Positions 30,522 through 46,347 of a stretch of 64,000 nt of DNA are shown one piece after another. The first letter of the stretch is position 1, and each line of letters begins with the position of its first letter. Source of the DNA: a virus. Location: positions 20,546 through 84,545 of the IMG/VR virus record IMGVR_UViG_3300045988_098461; one strand, written 5' to 3'. The notes under the pieces are model-generated. The model saw only the letters and a program-made list of their open reading frames with translations. It made no database searches and was not told where the DNA came from. The translations under genes were made by a program, and so were the position numbers.

Positions 30522-30533
30522 TTAGTTATAGGT

Positions 30534-30923: not shown

Positions 30924-31154
30924 CGGCGTTCAATAAAATATCAGTGGTGAGGTTAGAAGCTCTGCCACAAAAAGGTAGGGCGTTTTTTATGCTCGCTTCT
31001 TAACGGATTACGATATACGTGTATCGCTTCCCTTGGGTGTATTGTAATGGTGCATCCGTGCTTTCACTGATAGGCATTGAACAAAGGGTAAAGCGGTACA
31101 CTCTTTTTGTTGTATCAACCCGACAAGTGTTTAACGTTCAAAAATATCAGTTCA

Positions 31155-32018: not shown

Positions 32019-32038
32019 TTGAATAGGAGAAATCAAAA

Positions 32039-32281
32039 ATGGATAATCAGAATATGATGATAGAGGTAACAGTTGATAATGATGCTACTCAGCGGTGTGT
32101 CGGTCTGCTTAAAGAACTTATGGCGGTACAGGAGAAGGCTATGAAGTTCTTGGTATCTGAGGGTATTGATGATAGCAATGAGGGTACGATGATTGCCGAG
32201 GGCATCGGTAACGCAGTGAAAGCCTTTGGTGGCGTACTGCCAGAGGGTATCTACAATAATGTAGTCGGTATTGAGGTTTAA
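32039..32281 (+). CDS. hypothetical protein
   Basis: TAGGAGAAATC upstream of the ATG. Confidence 0.5.
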   Translation: MDNQNMMIEVTVDNDATQRCVGLLKELMAVQEKAMKFLVSEGIDDSNEGTMIAEGIGNAVKAFGGVLPEGIYNNVVGIEV

Positions 32282-32431
32282 TGTTATGCGTGAATAGGAG
32301 ATACGCAATACAACAAGGTGTAAATAATTATAGGAGATACAAATGTAAAAGGCAGTACTTTGAAATACGTGCTGCCTTTGTTTTGTTTATATATAATCTC
32401 TGTATTTTCCTGTTATTTACAGAAAAAACTA

Positions 32432-32439
32432 TACCTTTG
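32432..32439 (+). promoter_or_regulatory. -7 box TACCTTTG for the gp10 paralog
   Basis: 24 nt upstream of the ATG at 32463. The -33 box is imperfect. Confidence 0.4.
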
Positions 32440-32462
32440 ACATGGTAAACAAAATATAAGTT

Positions 32463-32939
32463 ATGGCAAAAGTACAATTACGAATTAAGGGTATTGAAGC
32501 CCTCAAAAAGAAACTAATGGAGCAAAGAGAGATAATGATTAATTATCTTACATACGCTATGGCTGAACTAGGTGAGCGTGCTGTCACCTATTCTAAGGAT
32601 AACAAGGGTTATCAAGACCATACAGCAAATTTAAAGAACACCATTGATTATGCTTTATTTCTTGATGGCGAACTTGTGTGCGTTGGCGACCACGAGGAAT
32701 TAAATGGAACTGAAAAAGATAAGGCTCATTTTATCCCTGATGCAGCAGTTAAGTATGCTCAACAGCAAGGTGTTATTGCCCCCGAAGGATATTCTCTTAT
32801 CATTGCATCTGGTGTAGATTACGGTCAACATGTAGAAAATAAGGGCTACAACGTATTGTACCTAACAAAATTCTTTCTTAAAGATGAAATGAAAAAGATA
32901 ATACTTAAAGCTATAGAGAATGCGAAGCAAAATAACTAA
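32463..32939 (+). CDS. HK97 gp10-family protein, intact paralog of 11133..11612
   Basis: 158 aa, collinear with the structural copy (...KDNKGYQDHTANLKNTI...GYSLIIASGVDYGQHVENKGYNVLYLTKFFLKDEMKKI). Has its own -7 box and hairpin. Confidence 0.6.
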   Translation: MAKVQLRIKGIEALKKKLMEQREIMINYLTYAMAELGERAVTYSKDNKGYQDHTANLKNTIDYALFLDGELVCVGDHEELNGTEKDKAHFIPDAAVKYAQQQGVIAPEGYSLIIASGVDYGQHVENKGYNVLYLTKFFLKDEMKKIILKAIENAKQNN

Positions 32940-32964
32940 GAGTGAGCCAACTGACCCACTCTTA
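32937..32964. terminator. hairpin between convergent genes
   Basis: TAAGAGTG/CACTCTTA, an 8-bp stem. Confidence 0.45.
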
Positions 32965-33007
32965 GTTTAGTATAGATGTCCGTAATTCTTATAAGAAAGG
33001 CAGGGCA

Positions 33008-33172
33008 CTATCTGCGCTCTGCCTTTTCTTTTTCTCTTTGCTTTCGTTCAGCCCTTGCGAGCCGAATTTCTTCATTAATCTCGTCCATCGTCATATTGAC
33101 GTTATTCTTCCTAGCTTCTTCTATGAGAGCATTGAAGTTCTCTAAAGCCTTCTTCTTTTCTTCTTCTGTCAT
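33008..33172 (-). CDS. small charged helical protein (54 aa, hand-found)
   Basis: MTEEEKKKALENFNALIEEARKNNVNMTMDEINEEIRLARAERKQREKEKAERR, with a TAATG junction to the upstream gene. Confidence 0.4.
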   Translation of the reverse strand: MTEEEKKKALENFNALIEEARKNNVNMTMDEINEEIRLARAERKQREKEKAERR

Positions 33173-33759
33173 TATTTTATATTAATCAGTTCGTTTCTAT
33201 CTATCTTAGGAGCTTCCTTTTTATCTGAATCAAAGTCGAGTATATATTTTTGAGGATAACTAATACAATGTAGAAAAATATACTTCCTCTCATCAATATT
33301 TATAGCCCTTACGACAAAGGTATCATTTCTATAAAAATATGAGTTATTATCATTGAGAGTGAAATCAGCTCTTATCTTCTCTTTGATGATATTATTATCA
33401 ACGGGCGTTTGCTCATATCCGTTCTCGGTAAGTAGATAAAGAAGCTTTTCGTTACTTTGCAGTTTTAAGTCTTTATATTGGTAATCCTGTCCAACAACAA
33501 TAAAGCTACCTGTTAGCTCACCAAGATGTTTATCTACATAACTATATCCTATAAGGCTATATATGTTAGACAATACAACCGTATCTTTATTCATTTCATC
33601 AATAGGATGAGTAGAGATATATTGCTTGATAGTTTGTTTGGTTGCATCTGGTATAGGCGATAAGCTTGTTATCTTCTGTTGAGCGTTGGCTGTTATACAA
33701 AAGAGAAGTTCACTAAATATACATATCTTCTTTATCTGTTTCATATTATTTATCTTCAA
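33172..33759 (-). CDS. secreted protein (signal peptide)
   Basis: N-terminus ...MKQIKKICIFSELLFCITANAQQ. Confidence 0.5.
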   Translation of the reverse strand: MKINNMKQIKKICIFSELLFCITANAQQKITSLSPIPDATKQTIKQYISTHPIDEMNKDTVVLSNIYSLIGYSYVDKHLGELTGSFIVVGQDYQYKDLKLQSNEKLLYLLTENGYEQTPVDNNIIKEKIRADFTLNDNNSYFYRNDTFVVRAINIDERKYIFLHCISYPQKYILDFDSDKKEAPKIDRNELINIK

Positions 33760-34096
33760 GTGTTATAAAAGTCAGATTATCTTTATCACAAGAAAACATA
33801 GCTTGCCCCACATTATAACCTCCGAAGCCATTTTTTGCTCTATATGTAACAACAAACAACTTCTCTCCCTGTTTTGACGTTTCTTGCTCTTGCATATCAA
33901 CGAACTCATAACTATCTGGGTCACGTAATCGTTGTTTGATTAAATCGCCAGCCATCGTCTCAACATACTCCTTGTTTTCGTACAGAGGGGTATTCATAAG
34001 TTTTTCTGTCTCTTTTTTGTTTTCATTCTGTCCGATAGCTATCATTAAAAAGAACAAAATAACAAGGATTCCAAGACATCCACATCCCTTCTTCAT
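33746..34096 (-). CDS. membrane-anchored / exported protein
   Basis: MKKGCGCLGILVILFFLMIAIGQ..., with TATAGGAGATAT upstream. Confidence 0.5.
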   Translation of the reverse strand: MKKGCGCLGILVILFFLMIAIGQNENKKETEKLMNTPLYENKEYVETMAGDLIKQRLRDPDSYEFVDMQEQETSKQGEKLFVVTYRAKNGFGGYNVGQAMFSCDKDNLTFITLEDK

Positions 34097-34112
34097 AACT
34101 ATATCTCCTATA

Positions 34113-34340
34113 TTAATATTTATAAATTGTACAATACCTACTTAAAACACGCTCTGCGGCGTTATCTTTTCCTTGCTTGGTATATACTAAGGCAAGGCGA
34201 AGATAACCCGTTCTGCGCAAGCAACCGAGGTACATCAGCCGCTCGTAGCAATATGTGGCTCTGCTTAGTATTCCATCACGGAGGTAGCGTTGAGCCATTG
34301 CCGCCAACTCCTTTGGTGATGCGTTATAAATCTGTGTCAT
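34113..34340 (-). CDS. small helical-repeat-like protein
   Basis: 75-aa ORF, first gene of the leftward cassette. Confidence 0.4.
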   Translation of the reverse strand: MTQIYNASPKELAAMAQRYLRDGILSRATYCYERLMYLGCLRRTGYLRLALVYTKQGKDNAAERVLSRYCTIYKY

Positions 34341-34365
34341 AACTCGTCTGATTTGGTTATGTATG

Positions 34366-34373
34366 CAAAGGTA
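34366..34373 (-). promoter_or_regulatory. -7 box TACCTTTG
   Basis: Plus strand reads caaaggta, 26 nt upstream of the ATG at 34340. Confidence 0.4.
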
Positions 34374-34485
34374 GCGAAAAAATGAATACTATATATTTAT
34401 ATTGCATTTTTTATATTAATATAACCTTAATTTACATATCAATATATTAAAAGCTATTAAAATACTAATAAAAATACCGAAAAGA

Positions 34486-34517
34486 TTTGGTGGTTTTAAA
34501 AGAAATTATTAATTTTG
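34486..34517 (+). promoter_or_regulatory. Bacteroidota-type promoter TTTG-N20-TAATTTTG (cassette copy B)
   Basis: TTTG at 34486-89 and TAATTTTG at 34510-17. Nearly identical to cassette A. Confidence 0.65.
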
Positions 34518-34571
34518 CGGTGTAAATAATTAATAAATAGGTTTAATATTTAAATTATAGGAGATACAACA

Positions 34572-34754
34572 ATGAAAGTTAAATTGATTAATGGAACAGA
34601 AGTAGAAGCTAACGTTTTTGATTACGTTGCTCAGATTTACGAAGGTGGCAAATGGCAGGCAGTTGCCGTTAGCTCTGATTACAATGAAGCTGAAAAGAAA
34701 CGTAAAGAGTATGCCGTAAAGGGCTGCTATACAAGAATAGAACAGCTTTACTAA
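34572..34754 (+). CDS. hypothetical protein
   Basis: TAGGAGATAC at 34558-67 before the ATG. Confidence 0.55.
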   Translation: MKVKLINGTEVEANVFDYVAQIYEGGKWQAVAVSSDYNEAEKKRKEYAVKGCYTRIEQLY

Positions 34755-34779
34755 TTAATGATATATAGGAGATACGACA

Positions 34780-35205
34780 ATGAATAAGTACGCAGAATTA
34801 AAGAAGAAGCATCAGAAAGAGCTTAATAAATTGCCAATGAAAGCTGCTTTTGGTAAAGAGCAGTTTAAGAAAATGATGGAAGAGTGGGGGCTTACCACCA
34901 ACGCCGAAGATATTAGTAAGATTGATATGCTCGTTTGTGGTTGCTATTGCTTAAAGGAAGATACCCATCTTTTCGAGGAGTACTTTCAGAGAACACAGAA
35001 AGAGCTTAAAGAGTTCTTAAAGGATGATGATAATCTTAAATCAGCATTCAAATATGAGTTCGCTAACCATGAATGCGGATATACATATACACCGCAAGAT
35101 GCGCTTCCTCCGCTTAATCTTACCTATGAAGAGGTTGAGAAGAATGAGCGTTTAAATAGGGTCTTTAACGAGGCTTGGTGTGAATATTTAGATAAATGTG
35201 AATAA
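34780..35205 (+). CDS. hypothetical protein
   Basis: TAGGAGATAC at 34766-75 before the ATG. Confidence 0.55.
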   Translation: MNKYAELKKKHQKELNKLPMKAAFGKEQFKKMMEEWGLTTNAEDISKIDMLVCGCYCLKEDTHLFEEYFQRTQKELKEFLKDDDNLKSAFKYEFANHECGYTYTPQDALPPLNLTYEEVEKNERLNRVFNEAWCEYLDKCE

Positions 35206-35208
35206 GAT

Positions 35209-35520
35209 ATGTATAAAGAAGGCGATGTTTTAGTACTTTATAATAATTGGCGTGCTGAGTATTGCATATTCATTCTACACAGAATATACAATGATGATTG
35301 GATAGAAGCTCATGCAAAGTATTCTCTCCCATTCAAAAAGCTTGGAGTAGGAGCAAATAATGCTTCTACAAACGTAAAATACTCTACGGGGTGTTTGAGA
35401 AAAGCGTATGAGGATGAAAGAGAATTTTTGTTAGAAAAAATGAAGGAAAAAGGTTATTCATACGATTTTAAGAAGAATAAACTGCTACATTCATTCAATT
35501 ATGAAAAAGGAAGAAATTAA
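35209..35520 (+). CDS. hypothetical protein
   Basis: 103-aa ORF with a TAAGATATG junction. Confidence 0.5.
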   Translation: MYKEGDVLVLYNNWRAEYCIFILHRIYNDDWIEAHAKYSLPFKKLGVGANNASTNVKYSTGCLRKAYEDEREFLLEKMKEKGYSYDFKKNKLLHSFNYEKGRN

Positions 35521-35619
35521 GATAAATGAGCATTGTAAGCACTATTTCTTAGGCTTCTGCCACTTCTATTTAGGTGGCTGCTGCTCTGGTATTAAATGCG
35601 GATATAAATAATTAAGATT

Positions 35620-35841
35620 ATGACAAAGTTTATTGAGGTAAAGTATAAAGGGCATTGTACCCTTGTAAATATAGATAATATCGCTTACGTTGAACCTTCA
35701 CGAAATGGCGATATAGTAACATCTATAAAGCTTAATTGCAAGACCACACCAACGGGCGGTCAAGTGATTCTCTGCGAGGATGATTACCACACATTCTTGA
35801 CTAGATTGGAAAACCTTGTTGTCGTTGATAAAGCTGAGTAA
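35620..35841 (+). CDS. hypothetical protein
   Basis: 73-aa ORF. Confidence 0.45.
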   Translation: MTKFIEVKYKGHCTLVNIDNIAYVEPSRNGDIVTSIKLNCKTTPTGGQVILCEDDYHTFLTRLENLVVVDKAE

Positions 35842-35844
35842 GAT

Positions 35845-36078
35845 ATGAGAGCATTTGACGTACTTTTAGCCTTACATCGCTTGGATATGCGACAGGGCAA
35901 GGATTATCTTGAAGCTCCTGAAAAGAATGATTTGGAGCTGAATGTGATAGAAGGTAAGCTGAAACGGAATCATTGGTATTGGTGCGATTTCCATAAGCAG
36001 CCAATGCTCGGCGAGCCTTCGGTTATCCTCACTCTTGGCGGTGGGGATATTCAATACCTTTATGAAGTAGAAAAGTAA
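35845..36078 (+). CDS. hypothetical protein
   Basis: 77-aa ORF with a TAAGATATG junction. Confidence 0.45.
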   Translation: MRAFDVLLALHRLDMRQGKDYLEAPEKNDLELNVIEGKLKRNHWYWCDFHKQPMLGEPSVILTLGGGDIQYLYEVEK

Positions 36079-36091
36079 ATTAATATAAGTT

Positions 36092-36358
36092 ATGTATCAG
36101 ATAAATGTTGTAACATATAGCACAAGAGTGGACGTAAAGAACGCTCGCCGCAAGGTAGCGAATCGACAAAAGAGAATGCTCGGAGGATGGTTTGAAAGCG
36201 TGAAATTAGCAAGAAAAGCCTTGAAAGAATTCTTTGAGAAGGAAGGCTATCAGATAGGTAACGAGGTCGAGGAAAAGGGCAGCGAGACCTATGTTAAGAC
36301 GTTATTCTTCGGTAACATTATGCTCGAAATGGAGTATAAGATAATCAAGTATAATTAA
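36092..36358 (+). CDS. hypothetical protein
   Basis: 88-aa ORF. Confidence 0.45.
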   Translation: MYQINVVTYSTRVDVKNARRKVANRQKRMLGGWFESVKLARKALKEFFEKEGYQIGNEVEEKGSETYVKTLFFGNIMLEMEYKIIKYN

Positions 36359-36361
36359 TCT

Positions 36362-36601
36362 ATGGCTCGTTTCGCTCTCAGAAATCAGGAGAAGATAAAG
36401 CAAGCATTCGGGGAAGAAAGGTTGGATGAGCTTTTGAAAGCATTGAAGCTGTATTCTGCCAAGTACCCGAAATTATCGTTGAACACAATCATCGAAGAGG
36501 GTAAGCCTTATCCTTCTTTCGTAGTTGATAAGATTGCCGTATTATATGTAACTCGCCTGATGTATGACGTTTATCACGTTGCTTTAAAGGAGTTCTTATA
36601 A
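36362..36601 (+). CDS. hypothetical protein
   Basis: 79-aa ORF. Confidence 0.45.
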   Translation: MARFALRNQEKIKQAFGEERLDELLKALKLYSAKYPKLSLNTIIEEGKPYPSFVVDKIAVLYVTRLMYDVYHVALKEFL

Positions 36602-36731
36602 ACAAAAAGCACCGCCCTCGGAGATACGAATGAGGACGATGCTAGATGTAAATAATTATTATGTTTAACGTTGTGAGTACATAGGAGATACGCACTCGAT
36701 ATAACAATTAATGCAAAAGTAATAAAAAATA

Positions 36732-36763
36732 TTTGGTTATCTGAATATTTCTTCGTAAATTTG
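36732..36763 (+). promoter_or_regulatory. Bacteroidota-type promoter TTTG-N20-TAAATTTG
   Basis: TTTG at 36732-35 and TAAATTTG at 36756-63. Confidence 0.6.
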
Positions 36764-36796
36764 CGAATAATTAACATTAAAATAGGAGATACAGCT

Positions 36797-37585
36797 ATGA
36801 TAGGAGCAATTATAGGTGATATTGTAGGCTCTAAATATGAGTTTAATAACACATTTGATTATAACTTTAAACTATTTGACGAAGGTTGTAATTTTACAGA
36901 TGATACTATCTGTACAATAGCCGTAGCAGATGCTATTCTTAAAGAAGGTGGTGATAAAAAGCCGAATGTCGGAGATTATTGTATCTCGCTTCAATACTGG
37001 TGTCAGAAGTATCTAAACCCAATGGGTGGGTATGGCGCAAGCTTCGCAAAATGGGTTCGTAGCTCTAATCCACAGCCTTATGATAGTTTTGGAAATGGAG
37101 CAGCTATGAGAGTTAGTCCTGTGGGTTGGGCATTCAAAGAAAATTCTGATATCATTCATCAGGCAATGATGAGCGCAAAGGTTTCGCATAGCCATGTTGA
37201 AGGATTGATTGGTGCTATTGCGGTAGCAGATTGTGTACATGCTTTAAAAGCATATAAACAAAAAGATTTGATTAGGGTAATAGCAAAACAATATTATGGC
37301 TCTGATTGGAATAAGAATCTTGTACCAAGAGGTAGATGGGCAGAAACTTGCCAAGAGTGCGTTCCTCTTGCCTTTAGAATAGTCCTTGATAGTGATAGCT
37401 TCGAGGACGCAATCAGAAATGCTGTATCCTACGGCGGTGATAGCGATACGATGGGAGCAATCGTTGGTTCAATCGCTCAGCCACTCTTTGGTATTCCACA
37501 AGAAATGAAGGAAAAAGCATTGAACTATCTCCCTTTGGATATGAAGAATGTAGTAACTAAATTTATTGATAGATATGGTGAATAA
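36797..37585 (+). CDS. ADP-ribosylglycohydrolase (DraG/Tri1-like ARH)
   Basis: Start at MIGAIIGDIVGSKYEF after TAGGAGATAC (36783-92). Also carries ...GAAMRVSPVGW... and ...SYGGDSDTMGAIVGSIA..., typical of the ARH family. Confidence 0.8.
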   Translation: MIGAIIGDIVGSKYEFNNTFDYNFKLFDEGCNFTDDTICTIAVADAILKEGGDKKPNVGDYCISLQYWCQKYLNPMGGYGASFAKWVRSSNPQPYDSFGNGAAMRVSPVGWAFKENSDIIHQAMMSAKVSHSHVEGLIGAIAVADCVHALKAYKQKDLIRVIAKQYYGSDWNKNLVPRGRWAETCQECVPLAFRIVLDSDSFEDAIRNAVSYGGDSDTMGAIVGSIAQPLFGIPQEMKEKALNYLPLDMKNVVTKFIDRYGE

Positions 37586-37910
37586 GGAAGATTTAATCAA
37601 GCACTGCCGATACTATAGAGGTGGTGAGAACCCAAATACCAACGAAAATATGGCTTGGTTTTGGGATATGGAAAGAGTGTATGTTAATAGCGAAGGAAAG
37701 TTTAAAGGTGAGGAAGAATATTATAAGAAAATCAATGGTAAGGAATATAAGGGGATTCCACATACATTGCTTATTATAATGTTCACTTCATGGGCTAAAG
37801 CAGCCTTCAATATTAAGGAAGAGATAGGTAGGTTCTATAAGCTGATAGACGAATACCTCTTTATCCCAAACGACCATTTCCCAGAGGATAAAATTCCAAA
37901 CGAACTATAA
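37575..37910 (+). CDS. hypothetical protein translationally coupled to the ARH
   Basis: Start MVNKEDL overlaps the end of the ARH gene. Confidence 0.45.
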   Translation: MVNKEDLIKHCRYYRGGENPNTNENMAWFWDMERVYVNSEGKFKGEEEYYKKINGKEYKGIPHTLLIIMFTSWAKAAFNIKEEIGRFYKLIDEYLFIPNDHFPEDKIPNEL

Positions 37911-37912
37911 CG

Positions 37913-37945
37913 AAAAAAGGTGCGCCGTAATGGTACACCTTTTTT
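37913..37945. terminator. bidirectional intrinsic terminator between convergent ARH and MuF-ART genes
   Basis: AAAAAAGGTG...CACCTTTTTT. Confidence 0.6.
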
Positions 37946-37947
37946 GT

Positions 37948-40752
37948 TTAATATCCGATATTGCTATCCTTTACATAAGATAAATCTCTTATTTCTTGCC
38001 CTATAACCTCGCAGTCTATGTAGGTCTTTCCACCTTCTTCATAAACCTTTGTTATTCGCATTCGTGTTCCTCTCTGAAAGAGTGTTTCGTGCTCGGAACT
38101 ATATGTTGAGAAACGACTTACTCCATCCCAACTTCTTTTATCACCACAACCGAAAGCAGAGAAAGGTTCTACGTAAGCAGCCTTTGTTCCTTTTGGTGCA
38201 TATATGTTCATAATAACACTTCGAGTATTGAAGCCTTTTCCTTTTCGGCTACCAGTTGACATAAAACCACCTTCTTGCATTTCCATTCCAACAAGGTCTT
38301 GAAGGTTTTTTGGCATAGAACCGCCAGCAAACTTAATTCGTGATTCAATAACTTTCATTCCATCATCACCTCTTGTAAACCACATATCGGTAGGAAGTTC
38401 GTTCTTTTCTATATAGCTTGTTATATTATTAACCTTCTCTATGAACCTTTCCTTCGTTTGGTAACTATCATATTTTCTTCCTTGTAATGGTTCATTTACA
38501 TCGCAATAATGATGAGTGTATTCGTATGTGAAATCTTTTTCTTTTTCTGTTGCTGCTATCCATTGTTTGGATGCAACATCTACGAGGGTTTTATCAGCTT
38601 TTGCACCATTACCCTTATCCCATACTGCGGCATCTTTCCTTGATTGAGAGAATCGGTCTGTATCAAATACAACATTCTTCGCATTTCGTTTTGCTTTCGC
38701 ATTAATAAGCGTTTCTTTCTTTTGCTTAGCTTCATAAAGCAACTGCTCAGCAAGGGTCTTATCCTTTGCGAGCATGGCGTGTTCAAGGTCATAGATAAGC
38801 TTATGATATATCTTGCTCTGTGTCTTATAACCTTTTACGTCAGCATAAGCTTTATTGATATTCACCCAATCAATCGCCGTTTTTACCTCATCAAGCTTTT
38901 TGAGATATGCCGCTTGCGATACCTTCCATGTAGCATACTTCTGTTGAACCCCGTGCATATTTCCACCAAGGAAATCAACTGCCTCAAATTGCAATTTGCT
39001 AACTTGCTTTTCAAGCGTCAAGCTTTGCCATTGAGCCAACTTTGCTTCTACGGCATCATATACTCCGTGCAATTCCTGGGACGTGAACTGCTTATGCCAC
39101 TTATTAACATCAGGGATGAGAGCAGAAAGTGATAATTCATCCTTTTTAATAGCAGAAATGGCGTTTGCGAGCGTTTTTGCTTCTTTCCTTGCTAATGTAT
39201 AGTTAGCAGACTTTAATGCGATTAGAACGGCAGAAACATCGGTTTCTCCGTAATTAGCAGCCACCTTCATAACATTTATCGCAACCTTGCGGTCAGTCCA
39301 TGCAAGTTTAGTCTGATAACCTCGCTTGAATCTATCAAACAAAGATGCTATCTCAGAAGCACTCTTTTTGTCCTTGATTGCGTAGCGGATAGCATAGTAA
39401 CGTTCAAAGAGGTCTTGGCTCTTTATATCCGTAACAGATTTGCTACCGAGCAGATTATGAACTAAGCCATTGTAATAGTCACGTCTATGCTTATCCCATC
39501 GGCTCTGTATCTTATCTATCTGCTCTTTAGTTCTAAGGGCGTGACGTTCCTTTGCCTTCGCAAGTATAAGCTCCTTAGAAGAAACCGCCTTTAACCCCAA
39601 TTTCTTGCGGTCTAACGGGCTTAAAAGATGTGCCCAATACTTTGTATTATCTTGTAAGTGCCAAGCCAATTTACCCCTCATTCCTGCCTTCACAATAGCT
39701 TCGGAGTTATCCTTAATGTACTGATTGTACTTCTCGGGCATAGTGAGCACGGCAAAAGGGGATACGTAGTTGCTCATATCCTCGCCAGCCATTAAGCGTT
39801 TATAAAACTCCTTTTTCTCATCGCCTTGTATAGTGATAGGGTCTGAGGTACAGATACATTGAGGATGCCAAGAAATCCATACGTAATCTTTCGGGTAGCG
39901 ACCTTCAAGGTCATTGCATATATCATCAATATTGTGCTGTGGTGATACGTGAATATACTGACCGATAACGAACGGCTCGTTCTGCCATCGCTCGTTTCTT
40001 GCCTTGTGATATGCGGCATTTATCTCCGTTCTTGCTACTCTGAGAGCATTCTTTCTTGCCGAGCGGTAAACACCCATGCCTACTTTCTCTAATGGCTCTT
40101 CAATAAAGCGCACCTTGCCGTCAATGATTCTACGTCTGCGCCAAGTCACCACATCTTTCTTCTTTCCGTTCTTCTGAACCTTGATGGTATGATAACGGCG
40201 ATACATCATATCTGGGTCATTAAGGTATCTGCGAATACTCTTGCCGATTTCCTCTGCTGATGAGCCTTGTTTGATTCCGTCCGCAATGGTGTTGCTCATA
40301 GCCATTTCAAACTCGCTCTTCGTCTGTTGGCAATAGTTCCAAACAATCTGAGCGAGATTCAATCCATTCTTTGTTTTCAAACGATTTGCAATAAACGTGG
40401 CTGCGGCGGTATCTCGTGCGACCCTTATTGCTTTATCAGTAAGCACGGAATAACCGCCTATAACCATTTCATCGTGGTTATACGCCAACGCAACGCCATC
40501 GGTGATGCCGCTCTTATAACAAAGAAGGCTATTCTGATAGTAATCATTAAAGATGTCGTTCAAACGAGCCTTTAACTGCGGAAAGTTATCAAAGTTAAAA
40601 AGCGCATCATCTTCGAGCACATCTTCTCCATAGCCAAGAGAGGTAAGCTTCTTGACATAATCGCTGTATAATCTGCCCAACCGCTTATTATAAACGGCGA
40701 ACAGATTATTCAGTTGTTCTTTCTGTTGTTTTGATGTGAGCTTCTTAGACAT
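37948..40752 (-). CDS. MuF/SPP1 gp7-type minor head protein fused to a C-terminal ADP-ribosyltransferase toxin domain
   Basis: MuF core ...HVSPQHNIDDICNDLEGRYPKDYVWISWHPQCICT.... The C-terminal ~190 aa carry the R-S-E triad: WFTRG, GGFMSTGS and SSEHETLFQRG (ExE). Confidence 0.8.
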   Translation of the reverse strand: MSKKLTSKQQKEQLNNLFAVYNKRLGRLYSDYVKKLTSLGYGEDVLEDDALFNFDNFPQLKARLNDIFNDYYQNSLLCYKSGITDGVALAYNHDEMVIGGYSVLTDKAIRVARDTAAATFIANRLKTKNGLNLAQIVWNYCQQTKSEFEMAMSNTIADGIKQGSSAEEIGKSIRRYLNDPDMMYRRYHTIKVQKNGKKKDVVTWRRRRIIDGKVRFIEEPLEKVGMGVYRSARKNALRVARTEINAAYHKARNERWQNEPFVIGQYIHVSPQHNIDDICNDLEGRYPKDYVWISWHPQCICTSDPITIQGDEKKEFYKRLMAGEDMSNYVSPFAVLTMPEKYNQYIKDNSEAIVKAGMRGKLAWHLQDNTKYWAHLLSPLDRKKLGLKAVSSKELILAKAKERHALRTKEQIDKIQSRWDKHRRDYYNGLVHNLLGSKSVTDIKSQDLFERYYAIRYAIKDKKSASEIASLFDRFKRGYQTKLAWTDRKVAINVMKVAANYGETDVSAVLIALKSANYTLARKEAKTLANAISAIKKDELSLSALIPDVNKWHKQFTSQELHGVYDAVEAKLAQWQSLTLEKQVSKLQFEAVDFLGGNMHGVQQKYATWKVSQAAYLKKLDEVKTAIDWVNINKAYADVKGYKTQSKIYHKLIYDLEHAMLAKDKTLAEQLLYEAKQKKETLINAKAKRNAKNVVFDTDRFSQSRKDAAVWDKGNGAKADKTLVDVASKQWIAATEKEKDFTYEYTHHYCDVNEPLQGRKYDSYQTKERFIEKVNNITSYIEKNELPTDMWFTRGDDGMKVIESRIKFAGGSMPKNLQDLVGMEMQEGGFMSTGSRKGKGFNTRSVIMNIYAPKGTKAAYVEPFSAFGCGDKRSWDGVSRFSTYSSEHETLFQRGTRMRITKVYEEGGKTYIDCEVIGQEIRDLSYVKDSNIGY

Positions 40753-41144
40753 TATTTACCCTTATAGTTCCTCTTGTAGAAAATAGCGATATTCACAGCA
40801 CCGTTATCTTCGTAATAATATCCTTTCTTCGTAAGGTACGACTTTACGGTTGCTGCCTCGTTGTTTTTTAGCTGATTAAAATCAATATTGATGTAACCAC
40901 CTAATTTCTTAGAAGTACCGTTTATAGCCTTGCTAATATCTACATTCGTCATATCCTTTATGTGTCGTGGCAAGGTTTTTGTGAATAAGGAAAACTTTGA
41001 ACGGTCTATTTCTGTGATATTCTGATAATTCATCTGCTTACTTTCTGCCTTTGATTTAATCTGAATATCTTTATTCGCATTTGTTCTGCTACTTGCAGCG
41101 TTTACACTGCTTATAGTACGTGTATTTCCACTTCCTTTTGCCAT
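40752..41144 (-). CDS. protein with conserved N-terminal MAKGSGNTR leader (family member 1)
   Basis: MAKGSGNTRTISSVNAASSRT..., located between the portal and MuF genes. Confidence 0.55.
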   Translation of the reverse strand: MAKGSGNTRTISSVNAASSRTNANKDIQIKSKAESKQMNYQNITEIDRSKFSLFTKTLPRHIKDMTNVDISKAINGTSKKLGGYINIDFNQLKNNEAATVKSYLTKKGYYYEDNGAVNIAIFYKRNYKGK

Positions 41145-41146
41145 AG

Positions 41147-42658
41147 TTATTCCTCCTCTTCTTCTTCATTGGAAACTGACTGTCTTCCACTTGCGGCACT
41201 ACCAAGTCCCGAAAGAGCTGCCTGCTGCGCCAACGCTTCTTCCTGTTCACTCTTCATTTCTTCCTCAACCTTATCAGGGTCATCATTGAGAGGGTTAAGC
41301 TCGATGGCACGGCGATTAGAGGTAGATTTCGCACCACCATTGGATGAAGTGATAAGTTGCAACATTTCAACATCATTCTTTGGTAGATATGGCTTGAAGA
41401 CTGGTTCAAAGTCAATCTGCTCAGCAACACTCTGGTCGATACCCTTTACGTAAACTCCCGTATTACAGATGCCGTTAGCTACGATATTCGAGCGGCGAGT
41501 AAACATTTCACCGAACATTTCTGTCTTCAAATCTGCTTTCATATAAGGAGCAGTGAACATCAAACGGATAGCCGCACCCGAGGTGTTGCTGCCCAAGGTT
41601 TTCATATTCTCAAAGCTGATATCGGCTGTTGAGGTGAATGAATAGATGATATTGAAGAGGTAAGCAATTTCACCCTTCACACTCTCAGGTGATTTATCCC
41701 ATGAAAGGACGTTCATACTTGCATCACTGCCACCTTGGAAGACTGTGCCTTGCTCGCCCTTCTCAGCGAAGCCCTCCAAACGACCTTTAATAAAGTACTT
41801 AGGCGTGCCGAAGTAGTCATTCGTATCACCCCAATTTGAGATACAAGTTTCCACTCTGTCAATAGCCCATTGAACATCTTCCCACTCAGCTTGGTCTTGT
41901 CTATAGTAAACGACAGGCACTTTGGTGAAGCCATGAGGTAGGGCAGAAATAAGCTTCCAACCTGCGCCATCAATATTAGTGTACTGATAGCACAATCTAT
42001 CTGTATATACATCAAAATGTAGCTCAGATTTTCCAAGCTCATCATATACATAGTACTCACGGGCGAAGCCGTCCATGATATGGAAATCGTTGAAATGAGG
42101 GTAGAGCTTATCGCCGTTTGAAGGTGAAAGCAACTGAACTCGGATTTCGCCTCGAAGCTTTCCCTCTGCGTCTGTTGGCATATACCATAACTCGGCGCAC
42201 TCACATTCCTTGAAGAGGGTACGGGCAAGTCGCTTATCGAAGTACTTCATCTTGTTGTCGTGATAGCAGTGCATGATGCCGTCATATAGCTTCTGCTGCT
42301 TATCGTCCATCTTCTTTATATCAACACCATGTGCCGTAGCTTTATAGGTAACGGCATTCATAAACAAGAAACCAACAGTAAGATTTGTGATTGACTTCTG
42401 AGCAGGGATAGCGATTCTTACTGGCTCAACTTTCTTATCCTTATAAATCGGTTTCTGTGTGATAGGGTCATACTGACCCGTAGGTACTTTGATTCGTTTC
42501 TTAGGACGGAAATCCTCATCAAAGATTTTATGCTTTGATGGATTCCATTGTTCTTCAAGCACACTCAGTGATGTCTTAAAGCCTTTCTTTCTTGCGGTCA
42601 ATACCGAGCGGACTGTGTTCGCATCTTGTATTGATACTATCTGTTCTATTGCTCTCAT
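41147..42658 (-). CDS. portal protein
   Basis: 503 aa between TerL and MuF, with an acidic C-terminal tail (NEEEEEE). Confidence 0.8.
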   Translation of the reverse strand: MRAIEQIVSIQDANTVRSVLTARKKGFKTSLSVLEEQWNPSKHKIFDEDFRPKKRIKVPTGQYDPITQKPIYKDKKVEPVRIAIPAQKSITNLTVGFLFMNAVTYKATAHGVDIKKMDDKQQKLYDGIMHCYHDNKMKYFDKRLARTLFKECECAELWYMPTDAEGKLRGEIRVQLLSPSNGDKLYPHFNDFHIMDGFAREYYVYDELGKSELHFDVYTDRLCYQYTNIDGAGWKLISALPHGFTKVPVVYYRQDQAEWEDVQWAIDRVETCISNWGDTNDYFGTPKYFIKGRLEGFAEKGEQGTVFQGGSDASMNVLSWDKSPESVKGEIAYLFNIIYSFTSTADISFENMKTLGSNTSGAAIRLMFTAPYMKADLKTEMFGEMFTRRSNIVANGICNTGVYVKGIDQSVAEQIDFEPVFKPYLPKNDVEMLQLITSSNGGAKSTSNRRAIELNPLNDDPDKVEEEMKSEQEEALAQQAALSGLGSAASGRQSVSNEEEEEE

Positions 42659-42686
42659 ATATGAATATTTTTTGTTATAACAAGGG

Positions 42687-42694
42687 CAAAGTTA
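42687..42694 (-). promoter_or_regulatory. -7 box TAACTTTG
   Basis: Plus strand reads caaagtta, 29 nt upstream of the portal ATG. Confidence 0.35.
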
Positions 42695-42754
42695 GTAATA
42701 ATATAACTTATATAGGCATGAAGAAGAAACCCTGTGTAAACAAAAGAAAAACGC

Positions 42755-42958
42755 CTATTTCGGCAGTCTTCCAATGTGCCAATGATTGCACTCACTACAA
42801 AGATATGCGGAGTAACCGAGTAGCCGCTTTTTCTTTATGTATCTTGCGGCTACCTTCTCATTATCAAAGGATAATTTGGCTACTCCTCTGCTATTATAGT
42901 GGGAGCGTTTACGATGATGCTCCCTTGGCTGTTTATCATATATTCGTTTCATAAGCAT
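42755..42958 (-). CDS. small basic Cys/His protein
   Basis: 67-aa ORF with ...YLCSECNHWHIG.... Confidence 0.4.
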   Translation of the reverse strand: MLMKRIYDKQPREHHRKRSHYNSRGVAKLSFDNEKVAARYIKKKRLLGYSAYLCSECNHWHIGRLPK

Positions 42959-42965
42959 TTCGATT

Positions 42966-44156
42966 TTAACCCATCAGACCGAGAATGTCGGCGGCTTGCA
43001 TTCCGCTGCCATAATCGCCCAATAACTTCTCCATAACAACATATCGGCATGCATCTATAGCGTGATTATACATATCTATAGGCTCATTAAGCCACTTTCC
43101 TTCCTTATCTTGGCGATAGGTATAATTATTAAATTCCCTTCTTACATTTGTAGAGCGTTTTGTTATATGAATTGTGTATTCTTGCATCTTCATAATACTA
43201 GCTTGAATAGAACCTTTGAACTTCTTTACAGGTTTTATATCAATACCAGCATTATAGATTTCATCTATCAGACGAGGGTCGGCACTCTCTGATATTACCT
43301 CAATATTTTTTTTATCCTCTTTCAATACTCTGATAATATCAGAAGAAAGCATTTCTGTCTGATAGCATATTTCATCTATATAGATAATCTTTCCGTAGAT
43401 ATATACATCAATAATCGCTGTAGGGTCATTGGAGTAACCAAAGTCAATGGCTCTGTATCGGTGTCTGTTCGCTTGAATAGGAATATAATCATCAATAACT
43501 ACATTCTTAAAAATCAAGCCCTCAACCATAGAACGCAATCCCAAACCATAAATACGCCAAAGGCTCGGATTCTTCCATTTAAGGCTCTCAATCTCAGCGA
43601 TAACCTTTGGCTCGAGGAAAGGATTATCCTTATAGGTGGATATAAACCAATAAGTGCTTTTTTCCTCGTTTACCTGATTTATCCAATGGTCTTCTGAGAA
43701 GGAAGGGTTATAATCAAGGATAGAGAACTCCGTGGTACGCATCTGTAGCTGCTGCCATTCGATGAAAGAAAGCTCATTCGCCTCATTTACGAAAAGTATC
43801 TTACGCTTAGAACCACGCACCTTCTGCTCGTTATCGGTGGAGAAGAACTCAATCCAAGAGCCGTTAGGGAAAGTATAAACGAACTCCGATTTATTCATGC
43901 ACTTATCATCCCACCAACCAAAGTTGAGCATTATATCCTTGAAATCACGATAGACAGTTCGTTTAATGGAAGGCATACCAGCACGAATGATGGAAACGGT
44001 CGTTCCAGCATAATTGAAGCAAAGCATACAGAGGAACTGCACAACAGAATAGGTCTTCGCAGAGCGTGAGCTTCCTTGAAGAGAGCAAGTTGTGAACCCT
44101 GCTTCTTTCGCTGCCTTTACCCTCATGTAGTTCTTTGCTAAATATACGTGCGGCAT
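42966..44156 (-). CDS. terL: terminase large subunit
   Basis: 396 aa with a Walker-A-like GSSRSAKT and a C-terminal nuclease-like half. Sits directly upstream of the portal. Confidence 0.9.
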   Translation of the reverse strand: MPHVYLAKNYMRVKAAKEAGFTTCSLQGSSRSAKTYSVVQFLCMLCFNYAGTTVSIIRAGMPSIKRTVYRDFKDIMLNFGWWDDKCMNKSEFVYTFPNGSWIEFFSTDNEQKVRGSKRKILFVNEANELSFIEWQQLQMRTTEFSILDYNPSFSEDHWINQVNEEKSTYWFISTYKDNPFLEPKVIAEIESLKWKNPSLWRIYGLGLRSMVEGLIFKNVVIDDYIPIQANRHRYRAIDFGYSNDPTAIIDVYIYGKIIYIDEICYQTEMLSSDIIRVLKEDKKNIEVISESADPRLIDEIYNAGIDIKPVKKFKGSIQASIMKMQEYTIHITKRSTNVRREFNNYTYRQDKEGKWLNEPIDMYNHAIDACRYVVMEKLLGDYGSGMQAADILGLMG

Positions 44157-44179
44157 ATCTCTATTATCCTTTATTGCTC

Positions 44180-44689
44180 TTATTTCTTTATTTCATCAAC
44201 TGTAACTAAGGTGTCGTTGTGCGAGCCGCCATGTGCTACGATAAGAATCTCTTTACATACCGCTCCGTTACATTTTCCTATTCCTTGTGTATTCCAACCA
44301 CAAGAAATACAGATACCTTCATTCTTTAATATTCTTGCAATCTCCTTCTTACATAAAGACCAATATTTGGCATTAGAGACATTTATCTCCAATTTCTCTT
44401 TGCCAAAATCCTTATATAGCAAAGATGCTTGTGTTACACTATAAGGTGGGTCGTATAATACCATATCAGCAGAATTAGATTTCTGCCCTTGAAGGAACTT
44501 TAATGCGTCAAGGTGATACTGAGTATCGCAGTTCGGATTTAAGTCATTGCGAATTGTTCCGAGCTTGCAATCCTTTGCGAATGGGTCAATAATAACACCA
44601 CCTTTATTATATTTATCAAAAAGTTCTTTGATTGGCTTTATACCGAAAGTATCACCACTTGGCATAGCCCATTTCTTCTGTATTTCCAT
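44180..44689 (-). CDS. small DNA methyltransferase (DPPY motif)
   Basis: VIIDPFA (motif I-like) and VLYDPPYS (motif IV). Confidence 0.65.
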   Translation of the reverse strand: MEIQKKWAMPSGDTFGIKPIKELFDKYNKGGVIIDPFAKDCKLGTIRNDLNPNCDTQYHLDALKFLQGQKSNSADMVLYDPPYSVTQASLLYKDFGKEKLEINVSNAKYWSLCKKEIARILKNEGICISCGWNTQGIGKCNGAVCKEILIVAHGGSHNDTLVTVDEIKK

Positions 44690-44693
44690 ATAT

Positions 44694-45197
44694 TTATTCT
44701 CCTATATTTTTATCTGGCTCAGCATCCTTCTTTTCTTTCTCTTTCTGAATCTCAGCGAGAATCTTCTGATACTCTTCATTGTTGGTAACAACGTGTACTT
44801 GCAATGGGTCTTGCTTAATCTGCTCGCCCTTGCTCGTAAGGTCGATGCGTTGAATCTTTCCGTAGGCTCTATCAATAACTCTTTCGAGCACATCAAGCCC
44901 TTTCTTGTCAAGTATTCCCTTGGCAATAATGCGTTGCATCATCGGGCGTGACTTATCTGTCAACACCGCCTCCAATTCGGCTTGGGGCAGGGTCGCGATA
45001 TACAGAAAAGACTCCGCGATAATCTGAGAGGAAGGCACTTCGTAACCCTTCTCCTTCATTTCTTCGATGAACAATGACATCGTCTTAGGCTTTGGCGGTC
45101 TACCCTTCGGGTTGCCAACTCCACCTTTTTTAAACTTACCTTTTTCAAGGTTTGCAAGCTGTCTTTTACGCTTGCTTTCATCTCTTGATAATGGCAT
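44694..45197 (-). CDS. terS: terminase small subunit (tentative)
   Basis: 167 aa with a basic N-terminus (KRKRQLANLEKGKFKKGGVGNPKGRPPK), upstream of TerL. Confidence 0.55.
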   Translation of the reverse strand: MPLSRDESKRKRQLANLEKGKFKKGGVGNPKGRPPKPKTMSLFIEEMKEKGYEVPSSQIIAESFLYIATLPQAELEAVLTDKSRPMMQRIIAKGILDKKGLDVLERVIDRAYGKIQRIDLTSKGEQIKQDPLQVHVVTNNEEYQKILAEIQKEKEKKDAEPDKNIGE

Positions 45198-45238
45198 ATT
45201 AATAACTTTTATTCCTAATTTATTCCCAACAATAGCTT

Positions 45239-45538
45239 TTATTTAAGAAAAGCATCTTTATTCTCTTTTTCCTCTGCTGCCATTTCTCGGCACATTTTTA
45301 GTACATTAAAGTACTCTCCAAGATTGTTGTTATAGAGCAGCTTTGCTATCTGCTGTACAAAAGATGACTTACGTCCATCTTGTTGTAAGGTCACTATCTG
45401 GCTCGCTGGCATCATCAAGAACTGCTCCATGATTTCAACCTTTTCCTTAGAGGAAAGAAGCTTCTTGGTAGGAAGCAGAAAACCCACTTCCTCCAAGATT
45501 TTTGTTTTGACTGATTTAACCTTCATACTTATCACCAT
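45239..45538 (-). CDS. hypothetical protein
   Basis: 99-aa ORF. Start is uncertain because it overlaps the end of folE. Confidence 0.4.
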   Translation of the reverse strand: MVISMKVKSVKTKILEEVGFLLPTKKLLSSKEKVEIMEQFLMMPASQIVTLQQDGRKSSFVQQIAKLLYNNNLGEYFNVLKMCREMAAEEKENKDAFLK

Positions 45539-46118: not shown

Positions 46119-46122
46119 ATTA

Positions 46123-46335: not shown

Positions 46336-46347
46336 AGGCGAAATGAT

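What the first reader, a model, noticed from the sequence alone, without database searches (positions are those of the whole stretch)
36797..40752. Virion-associated MuF-ADP-ribosyltransferase toxin convergent with a DraG-like ADP-ribosylglycohydrolase
Seen in the sequence: the 934-aa MuF/gp7-type head protein ends in a domain with the R-S-E signature of C3/VIP2-like ARTs (FTRG, FMSTGS, SEHETLFQRG with ExE). The convergent gene 36797..37585 is a clear ARH (GAIIGDIVGSKYEF, GGDSDTMGAIVG). The ARH has its own canonical promoter and strong SD. The two genes share a bidirectional terminator. Established knowledge: MuF-fused polymorphic toxins exist in temperate phages. T4 Alt is an ART packaged in the capsid and injected. 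ART toxin plus ARH immunity is the logic of Tre1/Tri1 and DraT/DraG, and an ExE motif usually implies arginine targets, which DraG-type enzymes reverse. Inference: the phage may inject an Arg-specific ART with its DNA and use the ARH to protect the lysogen or producer cell, or to reset the modification later. The coupled 112-aa gene 37575..37910 may be part of this module.
Basis: partly seen in the sequence, partly recalled or inferred. Interest (0 to 1): 0.78.

Follow-up and report, generated by a model that had tools for sequence, protein, structure and literature searches.

The report
Bxa-type phage toxin with two antidotes

Summary
Gene 37948..40752 (-) encodes a 934-aa MuF head-morphogenesis protein. 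It ends in a C3/VIP2-fold ADP-ribosyltransferase with R794, S832 and E887-x-E889. Gene 36797..37585 (+) is an ADP-ribosylglycohydrolase. It overlaps by 11 nt a 111-aa gene (37575..37910), and a hairpin terminator lies between that gene and the toxin gene.

The system is not new. It has the same architecture as Bxa, BAH and Bsi of phage PhiBxa. In that system the toxin is arginine-specific and kills E. coli. BAH reverses the modification, and Bsi binds the active site (JBC 2024, PMC11699363).

I recovered the true PhiBxa locus using the published residue numbers. The window's hydrolase is 51% identical to BAH, with catalytic E15 kept. The toxin is 30% identical to Bxa (34% in the ART domain), and the catalytic residues align. 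The 111-aa protein belongs to the Bsi family (hhalign 98.3%).

Of 42 related MuF-ART genes surveyed, 32 have both neighbours. A relative 85% identical in the N-terminus carries a glutamine deamidase instead, so this is a polymorphic toxin.

Packaging into virions and injection remain an untested, already published hypothesis.

Verdict: a divergent new member of a known kind, of low to moderate interest.

The parts
36732..36763 (+). Bacteroidota-type promoter (TTTG, 20 nt, TAAATTTG) upstream of the ARH/Bsi-like operon
   Evidence: Sequence read. The pattern TTTG-N19-21-TAnnTTTG occurs 8 times in the window against 1.16 expected, and 0 of 100 shuffles reach 8. A function as a promoter is inferred, not shown.
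36784..36792 (+). SD-like ribosome-binding motif AGGAGATAC, 13 nt before the ARH start codon
   Evidence: The same 9-mer has 17 exact copies in the window, several of them exactly 13 nt before ORF starts.
36797..37585 (+). ADP-ribosylglycohydrolase, 262 aa; homolog of BAH, the enzymatic immunity protein of Bxa
   Evidence: Pfam PF03747 E 6.2e-32. It is 51% identical to PhiBxa BAH (E 2e-92), with catalytic E15 and the TDDT and GGDSDT metal-binding motifs kept. It also matches PDB ARH family members.
37575..37910 (+). 111-aa Bsi-family protein (predicted non-enzymatic immunity protein that binds the toxin); its start overlaps the ARH stop by 11 nt
   Evidence: No Pfam match. BLASTP against Bsi is only marginal. 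However, 26 intermediate ORFs are hit by both queries. A profile built from Bsi-side sequences only finds it at E 2.4e-7, a profile of all Bsi hits at 5.5e-19, and hhalign of two independent alignments gives 98.3% probability, E 2.5e-14. It occupies the same position as Bsi in 37 of 42 related loci.
37913..37945 (.). Bidirectional intrinsic-terminator-like hairpin (A6, 8-bp stem, 5-nt loop, stem, T6) between the two convergent transcription units
   Evidence: Folds at -16.1 and -16.5 kcal/mol on the two strands, z -4.4 and -5.2, and 0 of 200 shuffles fold as well.
37951..38652 (-). C-terminal ADP-ribosyltransferase toxin domain (residues 701-934) with R794, S832, E887 and E889
   Evidence: Pfam PF03496 E 9.7e-25. 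It is 34% identical to the Bxa C-terminal domain, with R719, S757, E818 and E820 aligned. The AlphaFold2 model has pLDDT 92.9 and pTM 0.90. Foldseek top matches are 8za7_B, C3bot, Plx2A, VIP2, Certhrax and CDTa.
38653..39297 (-). Middle domain (residues 486-700), shared with Bxa and other MuF-ART proteins
   Evidence: phrog_16625 matches residues 492-928. Many relatives match from residue ~490 to the end while having other N-termini.
39298..40752 (-). N-terminal MuF / head-morphogenesis region (residues 1-485) of the same 934-aa protein
   Evidence: PHROG head-morphogenesis families at 8.8e-37 and 2.6e-19. Pfam Phage_Mu_F is sub-threshold only. The N-terminus recombines independently: P0122 is 85% identical over residues 1-485 but ends in a Gln_amidase toxin.
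40752..44156 (-). Context, upstream in the same late operon: 130-aa ORF (40752..41144), SPP1-type portal (41147..42658) and large terminase (42966..44156)
   Evidence: Pfam SPP1_portal E 4.9e-43, Terminase_3 and Terminase_3C.

Best explanation
This is a Bxa-family MuF polymorphic toxin module in a temperate phage of gut Bacteroidota.

The late head-morphogenesis operon (TerL, portal, a 130-aa ORF, MuF-ART) makes a 934-aa protein. Its N-terminal MuF part is a minor head component. Its C-terminal 230 residues are an R-S-ExE ADP-ribosyltransferase that probably modifies arginine residues on many proteins and is toxic in the bacterial cytoplasm.

A separate, convergently oriented two-gene operon with its own Bacteroidota-type promoter encodes the antidotes. 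One is a BAH-type ADP-ribosylarginine hydrolase that removes the modification. The other is a translationally coupled Bsi-type small protein that binds the toxin and blocks its active site. Together they protect the cell that makes the toxin, and probably the lysogen.

Shown here: homology of all three genes to Bxa, BAH and Bsi, conserved catalytic residues, the ART fold, conserved synteny, and the cassette-swapping (polymorphic) nature of the family.

Inferred from published experiments on the homolog: toxicity, arginine specificity, and neutralisation by both proteins.

Not shown anywhere: how and where the toxin is delivered. The candidates are the virion, release at lysis toward gut epithelium, or both.
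For: - Domain matches, including PHROG 'Bxa ADP-ribosyl transferase' at E 2.5e-123.
- The true PhiBxa locus was identified by 16 of 16 published Bxa residues and 11 of 11 published Bsi residues.
- PhiBxa has the same layout as the window: portal, small ORFs and MuF-ART on one strand, converging on Bsi, BAH and small ORFs on the other.
- Pairwise comparison: ARH/BAH 51% identical with E15 kept; MuF-ART/Bxa 30% identical over the full length, E 8e-105.
- ART domain alignment maps R794, S832, E887 and E889 onto Bxa R719, S757, E818 and E820.
- The 111-aa ORF is in the Bsi family (hhalign 98.3%).
- Synteny survey: 32 of 42 non-redundant MuF-ART genes have both neighbours. The Bsi start overlaps the ARH stop in 20 of those 32.
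- ART model pLDDT 92.9, with top PDB match to an ART-ARH effector-immunity pair and then C3/VIP2-type toxins.
- All 120 natural variants keep the 934-aa length and the catalytic residues, and the ART domain is the least variable segment.
- A close N-terminal relative carries Gln_amidase instead of the ART.
- The phage is temperate: it has an integrase and is seen in both integrated and circular forms.
- Published experiments on Bxa, BAH and Bsi (PMC11699363).
Against: - Identity to Bxa is low (30% overall, 34% in the ART domain), so target range and potency could differ.
- Of the two Bsi residues shown to be essential, K89 aligns with a lysine (K75) but E92 aligns with F78 in the one BLASTP segment that covers this stretch. 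The hhalign alignment ends at window residue 76. The binding mode is therefore not confirmed.
- The window has no homolog of the third PhiBxa gene, RS09440.
- The Pfam MuF match is below the gathering threshold.
- No experiment exists for this particular protein.
Confidence: 0.85

Rival explanations
1. Virion-delivered weapon or take-over factor. The MuF part carries the ART into the capsid, and a few copies are injected with the DNA. There they either reprogramme the newly infected cell, as T4 Alt does, or poison cells that lack immunity. The prophage-expressed ARH/Bsi operon protects lysogens or resets the modification later. This extends the best explanation with a delivery route rather than excluding it.
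For: - The toxin is fused to a head-morphogenesis domain and encoded directly after the portal gene in the late operon.
- The immunity operon has its own promoter, separate from the late operon.
- An isolated, virion-forming phage (Bacteroides phage Versailles) carries the same trio.
- The idea is already published for MuF-ART fusions (PMC9503650 and PMC5576092).
Against: - No tool result here bears on virion content.
- None of the papers I could read reports virion proteomics or injection for any MuF toxin. A 2025 paper states that little is known about MuF proteins.
- Injecting a promiscuous lethal toxin into the cell in which the phage must replicate would need very fast neutralisation.
Confidence: 0.35
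2. Host-directed (mammalian) fitness factor, as originally reported for Bxa. The protein is released from lysing lysogens and ADP-ribosylates epithelial cytoskeletal proteins, causing release of nucleosides that feed the bacterium. The ARH and the Bsi-like protein serve only to protect the producer before release.
For: - As summarised in PMC11699363, Bxa modifies epithelial cell proteins, stimulates inosine release and promotes gut colonisation by B. stercoris.
- The window's phage is very common in human gut metagenomes.
Against: - The ART domain is only 34% identical to that of Bxa, so the eukaryotic targets need not be shared.
- The original paper (Brown et al. 2021) was not available to me.
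- Nothing in the sequence points to uptake by eukaryotic cells.
Confidence: 0.3
3. The ARH is a general anti-defence or housekeeping enzyme of the phage, for example countering host ART-based defences, and sits next to the MuF-ART by coincidence.
For: - ARH genes occur in 12 fetched loci in which phmmer found no ART domain.
- Phages are known to carry stand-alone ADP-ribose-processing enzymes (PMC9503650).
Against: - A convergent ARH lies within 3.5 kb of 36 of 42 non-redundant MuF-ART genes, usually overlapping a Bsi-family gene.
- BAH, which is 51% identical, directly neutralises Bxa.
- The 12 exceptions were not examined for divergent ART domains.
Confidence: 0.05

Closest known systems
Bxa / BAH / Bsi of prophage PhiBxa, Bacteroides stercoris (Brown et al. 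2021; Alexei et al. JBC 2024, PMC11699363)
   Same: - Same three-gene architecture and orientation, placed after the portal gene.
- A MuF N-terminus, a middle domain and a C-terminal R-S-ExE ART with the catalytic residues aligned.
- The ARH is 51% identical to BAH with catalytic E15 kept.
- A Bsi-family small protein overlaps the ARH stop.
- Temperate gut Bacteroidota phage.
   Different: - 934 aa against 869 aa, and only 30% identity overall (34% in the ART domain).
- A different MuF N-terminal subtype.
- A different ART motif subtype (YTHHYCDVNEPLQGR against YTAGSSYITEPLRA).
- Bsi interface residue E92 is not conserved.
- No RS09440 homolog; the ARH has its own promoter instead.
- The phage backbone is only distantly related: portal 26% identical, TerL about 19% against phage Versailles.
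- The genome is larger (contigs of ~86.5 kb), and the closest reference genome is a MAG labelled Prevotella sp..
Apk2 / Aph1 / Tis1 MuF toxins: (p)ppApp synthetase toxins of temperate phages (PMC10083569; Bartoli et al. 2023; PMC12226406)
   Same: A MuF-fused toxin in the head module. It is neutralised by two adjacent immunity proteins, one an enzyme that reverses the toxin's product and one a binding inhibitor.
   Different: The toxin chemistry is alarmone synthesis, not ADP-ribosylation. The reversing enzyme is a (p)ppApp hydrolase, not an ARH. The hosts are mostly Gram-positive.
Listeria monocytogenes Lmo0066/Lmo0067, an ART-ARH toxin effector-immunity pair (PDB 8za7)
   Same: The best sequence match (E 3.2e-11) and best structural match (Foldseek E 8.9e-16, TM 0.85 on the target) of the ART domain. 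The window's ARH also matches the partner chain 8za7_A.
   Different: Not fused to MuF. The Listeria ART chain is only 180 residues. There is no Bsi-type second immunity protein that I know of. I found no paper on it in the library.
Tre1/Tri1 (Serratia T6SS) and DraT/DraG
   Same: Arginine-directed ADP-ribosylation that is reversed by a PF03747-family hydrolase encoded nearby. This rests on my own knowledge and on citations in PMC11699363.
   Different: Tre1 is delivered by the T6SS, and Tri1 combines hydrolase and binding inhibition in one protein, whereas here the two functions sit in two proteins. DraT/DraG is a regulatory switch for nitrogenase, not a toxin-immunity pair.
Phage T4 Alt
   Same: An ART of the Alt/VIP2 clade that is associated with the phage head. 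It is the precedent for injected ARTs (PMC9503650).
   Different: Alt is not a MuF fusion, has no ARH or Bsi partner, and is known to be packaged and injected. Packaging has not been tested for the window protein.

Membership tests
Bxa-type MuF-ART toxin with BAH/Bsi immunity | N-terminal MuF / head-morphogenesis domain, encoded in the head module after the portal gene | tested here: met
   PHROG head-morphogenesis families at 8.8e-37 and 2.6e-19. Pfam Phage_Mu_F is sub-threshold only (E 0.0034). The gene order is TerL, portal, 130-aa ORF, MuF-ART.
Bxa-type MuF-ART toxin with BAH/Bsi immunity | C-terminal R-S-ExE ADP-ribosyltransferase domain homologous to the Bxa C-terminal domain, with the catalytic glutamate (Bxa E820) | tested here: met
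   Pfam PF03496 E 9.7e-25; phrog_16625 E 2.5e-123; 34% identity to the Bxa C-terminal domain; E889 aligns with E820, E887 with E818, R794 with R719 and S832 with S757. The AF2 model has a C3/VIP2-type fold.
Bxa-type MuF-ART toxin with BAH/Bsi immunity | Adjacent, convergently oriented BAH-type ADP-ribosylhydrolase with the catalytic Glu15 | tested here: met
   51% identity to BAH, E 2e-92, with E15 at the identical position. The orientation is the same as in PhiBxa.
Bxa-type MuF-ART toxin with BAH/Bsi immunity | Bsi-family small protein between the toxin gene and the hydrolase gene | tested here: met
   hhalign 98.3%, E 2.5e-14. The Bsi-only profile gives E 2.4e-7. The position is the same in 37 of 42 loci. 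Essential residue K89 aligns with a lysine, but E92 is not conserved.
Bxa-type MuF-ART toxin with BAH/Bsi immunity | The toxin is lethal in bacteria, arginine-specific, and neutralised by both immunity proteins | not testable with these tools
   Shown only for Bxa, BAH and Bsi themselves (PMC11699363).
MuF polymorphic toxins of temperate phages (Jamet et al. 2017) | A conserved N-terminal MuF region joined to interchangeable C-terminal toxin domains in close relatives | tested here: met
   P0122 is 85% identical over residues 1-485 but carries Gln_amidase (PF15644). P0126 and P0131 do likewise. Conversely, many proteins share residues 490-934 with other N-termini.
MuF polymorphic toxins of temperate phages (Jamet et al. 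2017) | Encoded by a temperate phage or prophage | tested here: met
   Tyrosine integrase at 62651..63826. The same integrase is found next to bacterial genes (L166) and next to phage genes (L167, L168).
Head-packaged, injected phage ARTs (T4 Alt type) | The protein is present in the mature virion and is delivered into the infected cell | not testable with these tools
   Only the MuF fusion and the gene position suggest it. I found no published virion data for any MuF toxin.
DraG / ARH1-type ADP-ribosylarginine hydrolases (PF03747) | PF03747 fold with the metal-binding acidic motifs | tested here: met
   Pfam E 6.2e-32. PDB sequence matches to DraG (4e-9) and ARH1 (1.3e-7). The TDDT and GGDSDT motifs are present. 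Substrate specificity was not tested.

The most novel reading that the evidence does not exclude
This divergent ART subtype sits in a temperate phage that is very widespread in the human gut and may infect Prevotella. It could be packaged through its MuF domain and injected, so that virions act as delivery vehicles for a promiscuous arginine-ADP-ribosylating toxin. Lysogens would be protected by a separately promoted ARH/Bsi operon. That would make it a phage-borne interbacterial or superinfection weapon. Its targets, bacterial or epithelial, might also differ from those of Bxa.
Probability: 0.25. Interest if true: 0.6.

Novelty: new member of a known kind. Interest (0 to 1): 0.25.

Why it matters
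The system itself is already known. Bxa is one of the few phage-encoded proteins with a demonstrated effect on gut colonisation, and its two-antidote logic has been worked out.

What this window adds is a divergent variant (about 30-34% identity in the toxin) carried by a temperate phage of roughly 86 kb. That phage is found in very many human gut metagenomes, probably in a different host genus. The three-gene module is kept even though the phage backbone has diverged deeply.

The window therefore offers a second, abundant model for the question that is still open for all MuF toxins: whether they travel in the virion, and what they do on arrival. It does not open a new question.

Tried and rejected
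- Megablast of 36500-41200 against GenBank phages: no match. The phage itself is not among deposited phage genomes.
- The genome-contig scan with a 24-sequence alignment chose a pattern in the MuF region. It therefore returned MuF relatives but not B. stercoris. I recovered PhiBxa from IMG/VR instead.
- The published Bxa residue fingerprint matched none of the 150 cluster representatives. It matched 7 IMG/VR loci perfectly.
- Direct BLASTP of the 111-aa ORF against Bsi is nearly insignificant (8 of 20 residues, E 0.001). Profile methods were needed.
- The 79-aa ORF upstream of the ARH (36362..36601) is not related to BACSTE_RS09440. No RS09440 homolog exists anywhere in the window.
- The sigma-70 promoter scan found fewer sites than chance and none upstream of the ARH. 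The simple terminator scan missed the intergenic hairpin.
- Brown et al. 2021 (PMC8429246) is not held. Its content is cited only through PMC11699363.
It was re-run without that row.
- I found no literature on PDB 8za7.
- I considered and rejected a decayed or non-functional toxin, because all 120 variants keep the full length and the catalytic residues.

Full report
**1. What is in the sequence**

- Gene 37948..40752 (-) encodes a 934-aa protein. It lies at the end of a late operon of large terminase (42966..44156), SPP1-type portal (41147..42658) and a 130-aa ORF.
- Its C-terminus matches Pfam ADPrib_exo_Tox (E 9.7e-25, residues 723-912).
- Its N-terminus matches PHROG head-morphogenesis families (8.8e-37, 2.6e-19). 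The Pfam Phage_Mu_F match is sub-threshold only.
- Gene 36797..37585 (+) is an ADP-ribosylglycohydrolase (Pfam E 6.2e-32).
- Its stop overlaps by 11 nt the start of a 111-aa ORF, 37575..37910, which has no Pfam match.
- The 37-nt gap between that ORF and the toxin gene holds an A6-stem-loop-T6 hairpin. It folds at about -16 kcal/mol on either strand (z -4.4 and -5.2).

The promoter upstream of the hydrolase is not sigma-70-like. It is a perfect Bacteroidota-type TTTG-N20-TAAATTTG at 36732-36763. This pattern is found 8 times in the window against 1.16 expected. An AGGAGA lies 8 nt before the ATG.

The small gene is 111 aa, not 112. The terminator separates the toxin gene from the small gene, not directly from the hydrolase gene.

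**2. It is a published system**

The PHROG hit was named 'Bxa ADP-ribosyl transferase' (E 2.5e-123). A literature search led to Alexei et al., JBC 2024 (PMC11699363). That paper reports the following.

- Bxa is an 869-aa protein of the B. stercoris prophage PhiBxa, with an N-terminal MuF domain and a C-terminal ART.
- Earlier work linked it to gut colonisation through an action on epithelial cells.
- It kills E. coli through its ART activity (E820A abolishes this), and it modifies arginine.
- The adjacent hydrolase BAH (catalytic E15) reverses the modification and rescues growth.
- The adjacent small protein Bsi binds the toxin and blocks it (K89 and E92 are essential).
- A third small gene, RS09440, has no effect.
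- The paper states that bxa orthologs co-occur with BAH-like and Bsi-like genes in diverse gut Bacteroidales. It also states that the Bxa N-terminus is found fused to other toxins.

**3. Is the window homologous to that system?**

I did not have the Bxa sequences. I used the residue numbers in the paper's supplementary tables as a fingerprint.

- Seven IMG/VR loci carry an 869-aa ORF matching 16 of 16 Bxa residues. One of them (L088) also carries an adjacent 110-aa ORF matching 11 of 11 Bsi residues.
- In L097 the layout is portal, two small ORFs and Bxa on one strand, converging on Bsi, BAH and RS09440 on the other. This is the same as in the window.

Pairwise results:

| Window protein | PhiBxa protein | Result |
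|---|---|---|
| ARH (262 aa) | BAH | 51% identical, E 2e-92, E15 at the identical position |
| MuF-ART (934 aa) | Bxa | 30% identical over the full length, E 8e-105 |
| ART domain | Bxa C-terminal domain | 34% identical; R794, S832, E887, E889 align with R719, S757, E818, E820 |
| 111-aa ORF | Bsi | one weak local match over Bsi's interface helix |

The weak Bsi match becomes firm with profile methods.

- 26 ORFs from other loci are hit by both the window ORF and Bsi.
- A profile built only from Bsi-side sequences that the window ORF does not detect finds the window ORF at E 2.4e-7.
- hhalign of two independent alignments gives 98.3% probability (E 2.5e-14).

All three genes are therefore homologs of Bxa, BAH and Bsi.

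**4. Family-level support**

- Among 42 non-redundant MuF-ART genes with enough downstream sequence, 37 have a convergent Bsi-like ORF, 36 have a convergent ARH, and 32 have both. In 20 of those 32 the Bsi start overlaps the ARH stop.
- An exhaustive search found 3408 relatives. The N-terminal region (residues 1-310, 1-420 or 1-485) and the C-terminal region (490-934) occur with different partners.
- P0122 is 85% identical over residues 1-485 but ends in a glutamine deamidase toxin. This is the hallmark of a polymorphic toxin.
- An AlphaFold2 model of residues 690-934 is confident (pLDDT 92.9, pTM 0.90).
- Its best PDB matches are the Listeria ART-ARH effector-immunity pair 8za7, then C3 exoenzymes, Plx2A, VIP2, Certhrax and CDTa/iota toxins.
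- All 120 natural variants at 98% identity or more keep the 934-aa length and the four catalytic residues. The ART domain is the least variable segment.

**5. The phage**

- The protein is very common in human gut metagenomes. It lies on contigs of about 86.5 kb in independent samples.
- The closest reference genome is a MAG labelled Prevotella sp., at 97% identity. Binning labels should be treated with caution.
- The integrase (62651..63826) is found both next to bacterial genes and next to phage genes. These are the integrated and circular forms of a temperate phage.
- The backbone is only distantly related to PhiBxa and Versailles. The portal is 26% identical to the PhiBxa portal and TerL about 19% identical to that of Versailles. 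The module is therefore conserved across deep phage divergence.
- An isolated phage, Bacteroides phage Versailles, carries the PhiBxa-type trio. The toxin and the small protein are annotated as hypothetical.

**6. How it most likely works**

The late operon produces the MuF-ART during lytic growth. The separately promoted ARH/Bsi-like operon neutralises it in the producing cell by two routes: enzymatic reversal and active-site occlusion.

- Homology, catalytic residues, fold and synteny are shown here.
- Toxicity, arginine specificity and neutralisation are inferred from the published homolog.
- Delivery is open. It could be through the virion and injection, or by release at lysis toward the epithelium. 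Packaging of MuF-ART fusions is a published hypothesis (PMC9503650, PMC5576092). I found no report testing it, and a 2025 paper still says little is known about MuF proteins.

**7. Differences from Bxa**

- Low identity, and a different MuF subtype and ART motif subtype.
- Bsi residue E92 is not conserved.
- There is no RS09440 homolog. A promoter lies directly upstream of the hydrolase instead.
- The phage is larger, and the host genus is probably different.

**8. Verdict**

It is a divergent new member of a characterised toxin-immunity family, not a new system. Interest is low to moderate.

Noticed in passing
window 45516..51322 (- strand): A 7-deazaguanine (preQ0-type) gene set lies just upstream of the terminase genes. 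It comprises GTP cyclohydrolase I (45516..46184), radical-SAM QueE (46348..46938), PTPS/QueD (~46938..47297), QueC (47978..48634) and DUF4417 (50552..51322). The Pfam labels come from contigs whose gene spacing matches the window's ORFs exactly (their MuF-ART differs from the window's by a few residues). This suggests the phage modifies its DNA.
   Followed up: partly
window, 17 exact copies, e.g. 25863, 26509, 34559, 34767, 36784: The 9-mer AGGAGATAC is a recurring extended Shine-Dalgarno-like motif. It often lies exactly 13 nt before a start codon. With up to one mismatch there are 40 matches against 13.7 expected. This is unexpected for a Bacteroidota phage, since to my knowledge Bacteroidota are thought to make little use of SD pairing.
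   Followed up: partly
window 19076, 25567, 30892, 34486 (+ strand): Four nearly identical Bacteroidota-type promoters (TTTGGTAGT...ATTATTAATTTTG) are spaced along the 19-kb + strand block. They probably mark early or middle transcription units under common control.
   Followed up: no
window 1..18900 and 37948..50200 (- strand), against 19600..37910 (+ strand): The structural genes are split. The terminase, portal and MuF block is separated from the capsid and tail block (major capsid 12396..13490, 1714-aa protein 4219..9363) by a 19-kb block of opposite-strand genes that ends with the ARH/Bsi operon. PhiBxa and phage Versailles show the same switch of strand right after the MuF-ART gene.
   Followed up: partly
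window 59972..61207 (+) and 29778..30521 (+): An RtcB RNA ligase (Pfam E 5e-63) and an N6/N4 DNA methyltransferase are encoded by the phage. They may serve in tRNA repair and anti-restriction.
   Followed up: no
L167 and L168, 4047..4784 and 9101..9727 (phage DNA beyond the window's right end): Next to the integrase, the circular form of the phage carries an Apyc1-type anti-Pycsar metallo-beta-lactamase-fold protein and an S24 peptidase (CI/LexA-type) repressor.
   Followed up: no
L022 and L024 (5950..11097; ORFs at 11129..11729); L006 (2555..5368): These are variants of the module. Two loci have a 1715-aa MuF-ART followed by two tandem Bsi-like ORFs and no hydrolase. L006, whose toxin is 73% identical to the window's, has a Bsi-like ORF but no hydrolase within 6 kb. 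The hydrolase is therefore dispensable in some lineages.
   Followed up: no
L025, L026, L039, L129, L134, L135, L137, L142, L147, L148, L155, L164: Twelve MuF loci have an ARH but no ART domain detectable by phmmer with either the window or the Bxa ART domain. They may hold a more divergent ART family, or the hydrolase may have another role.
   Followed up: no
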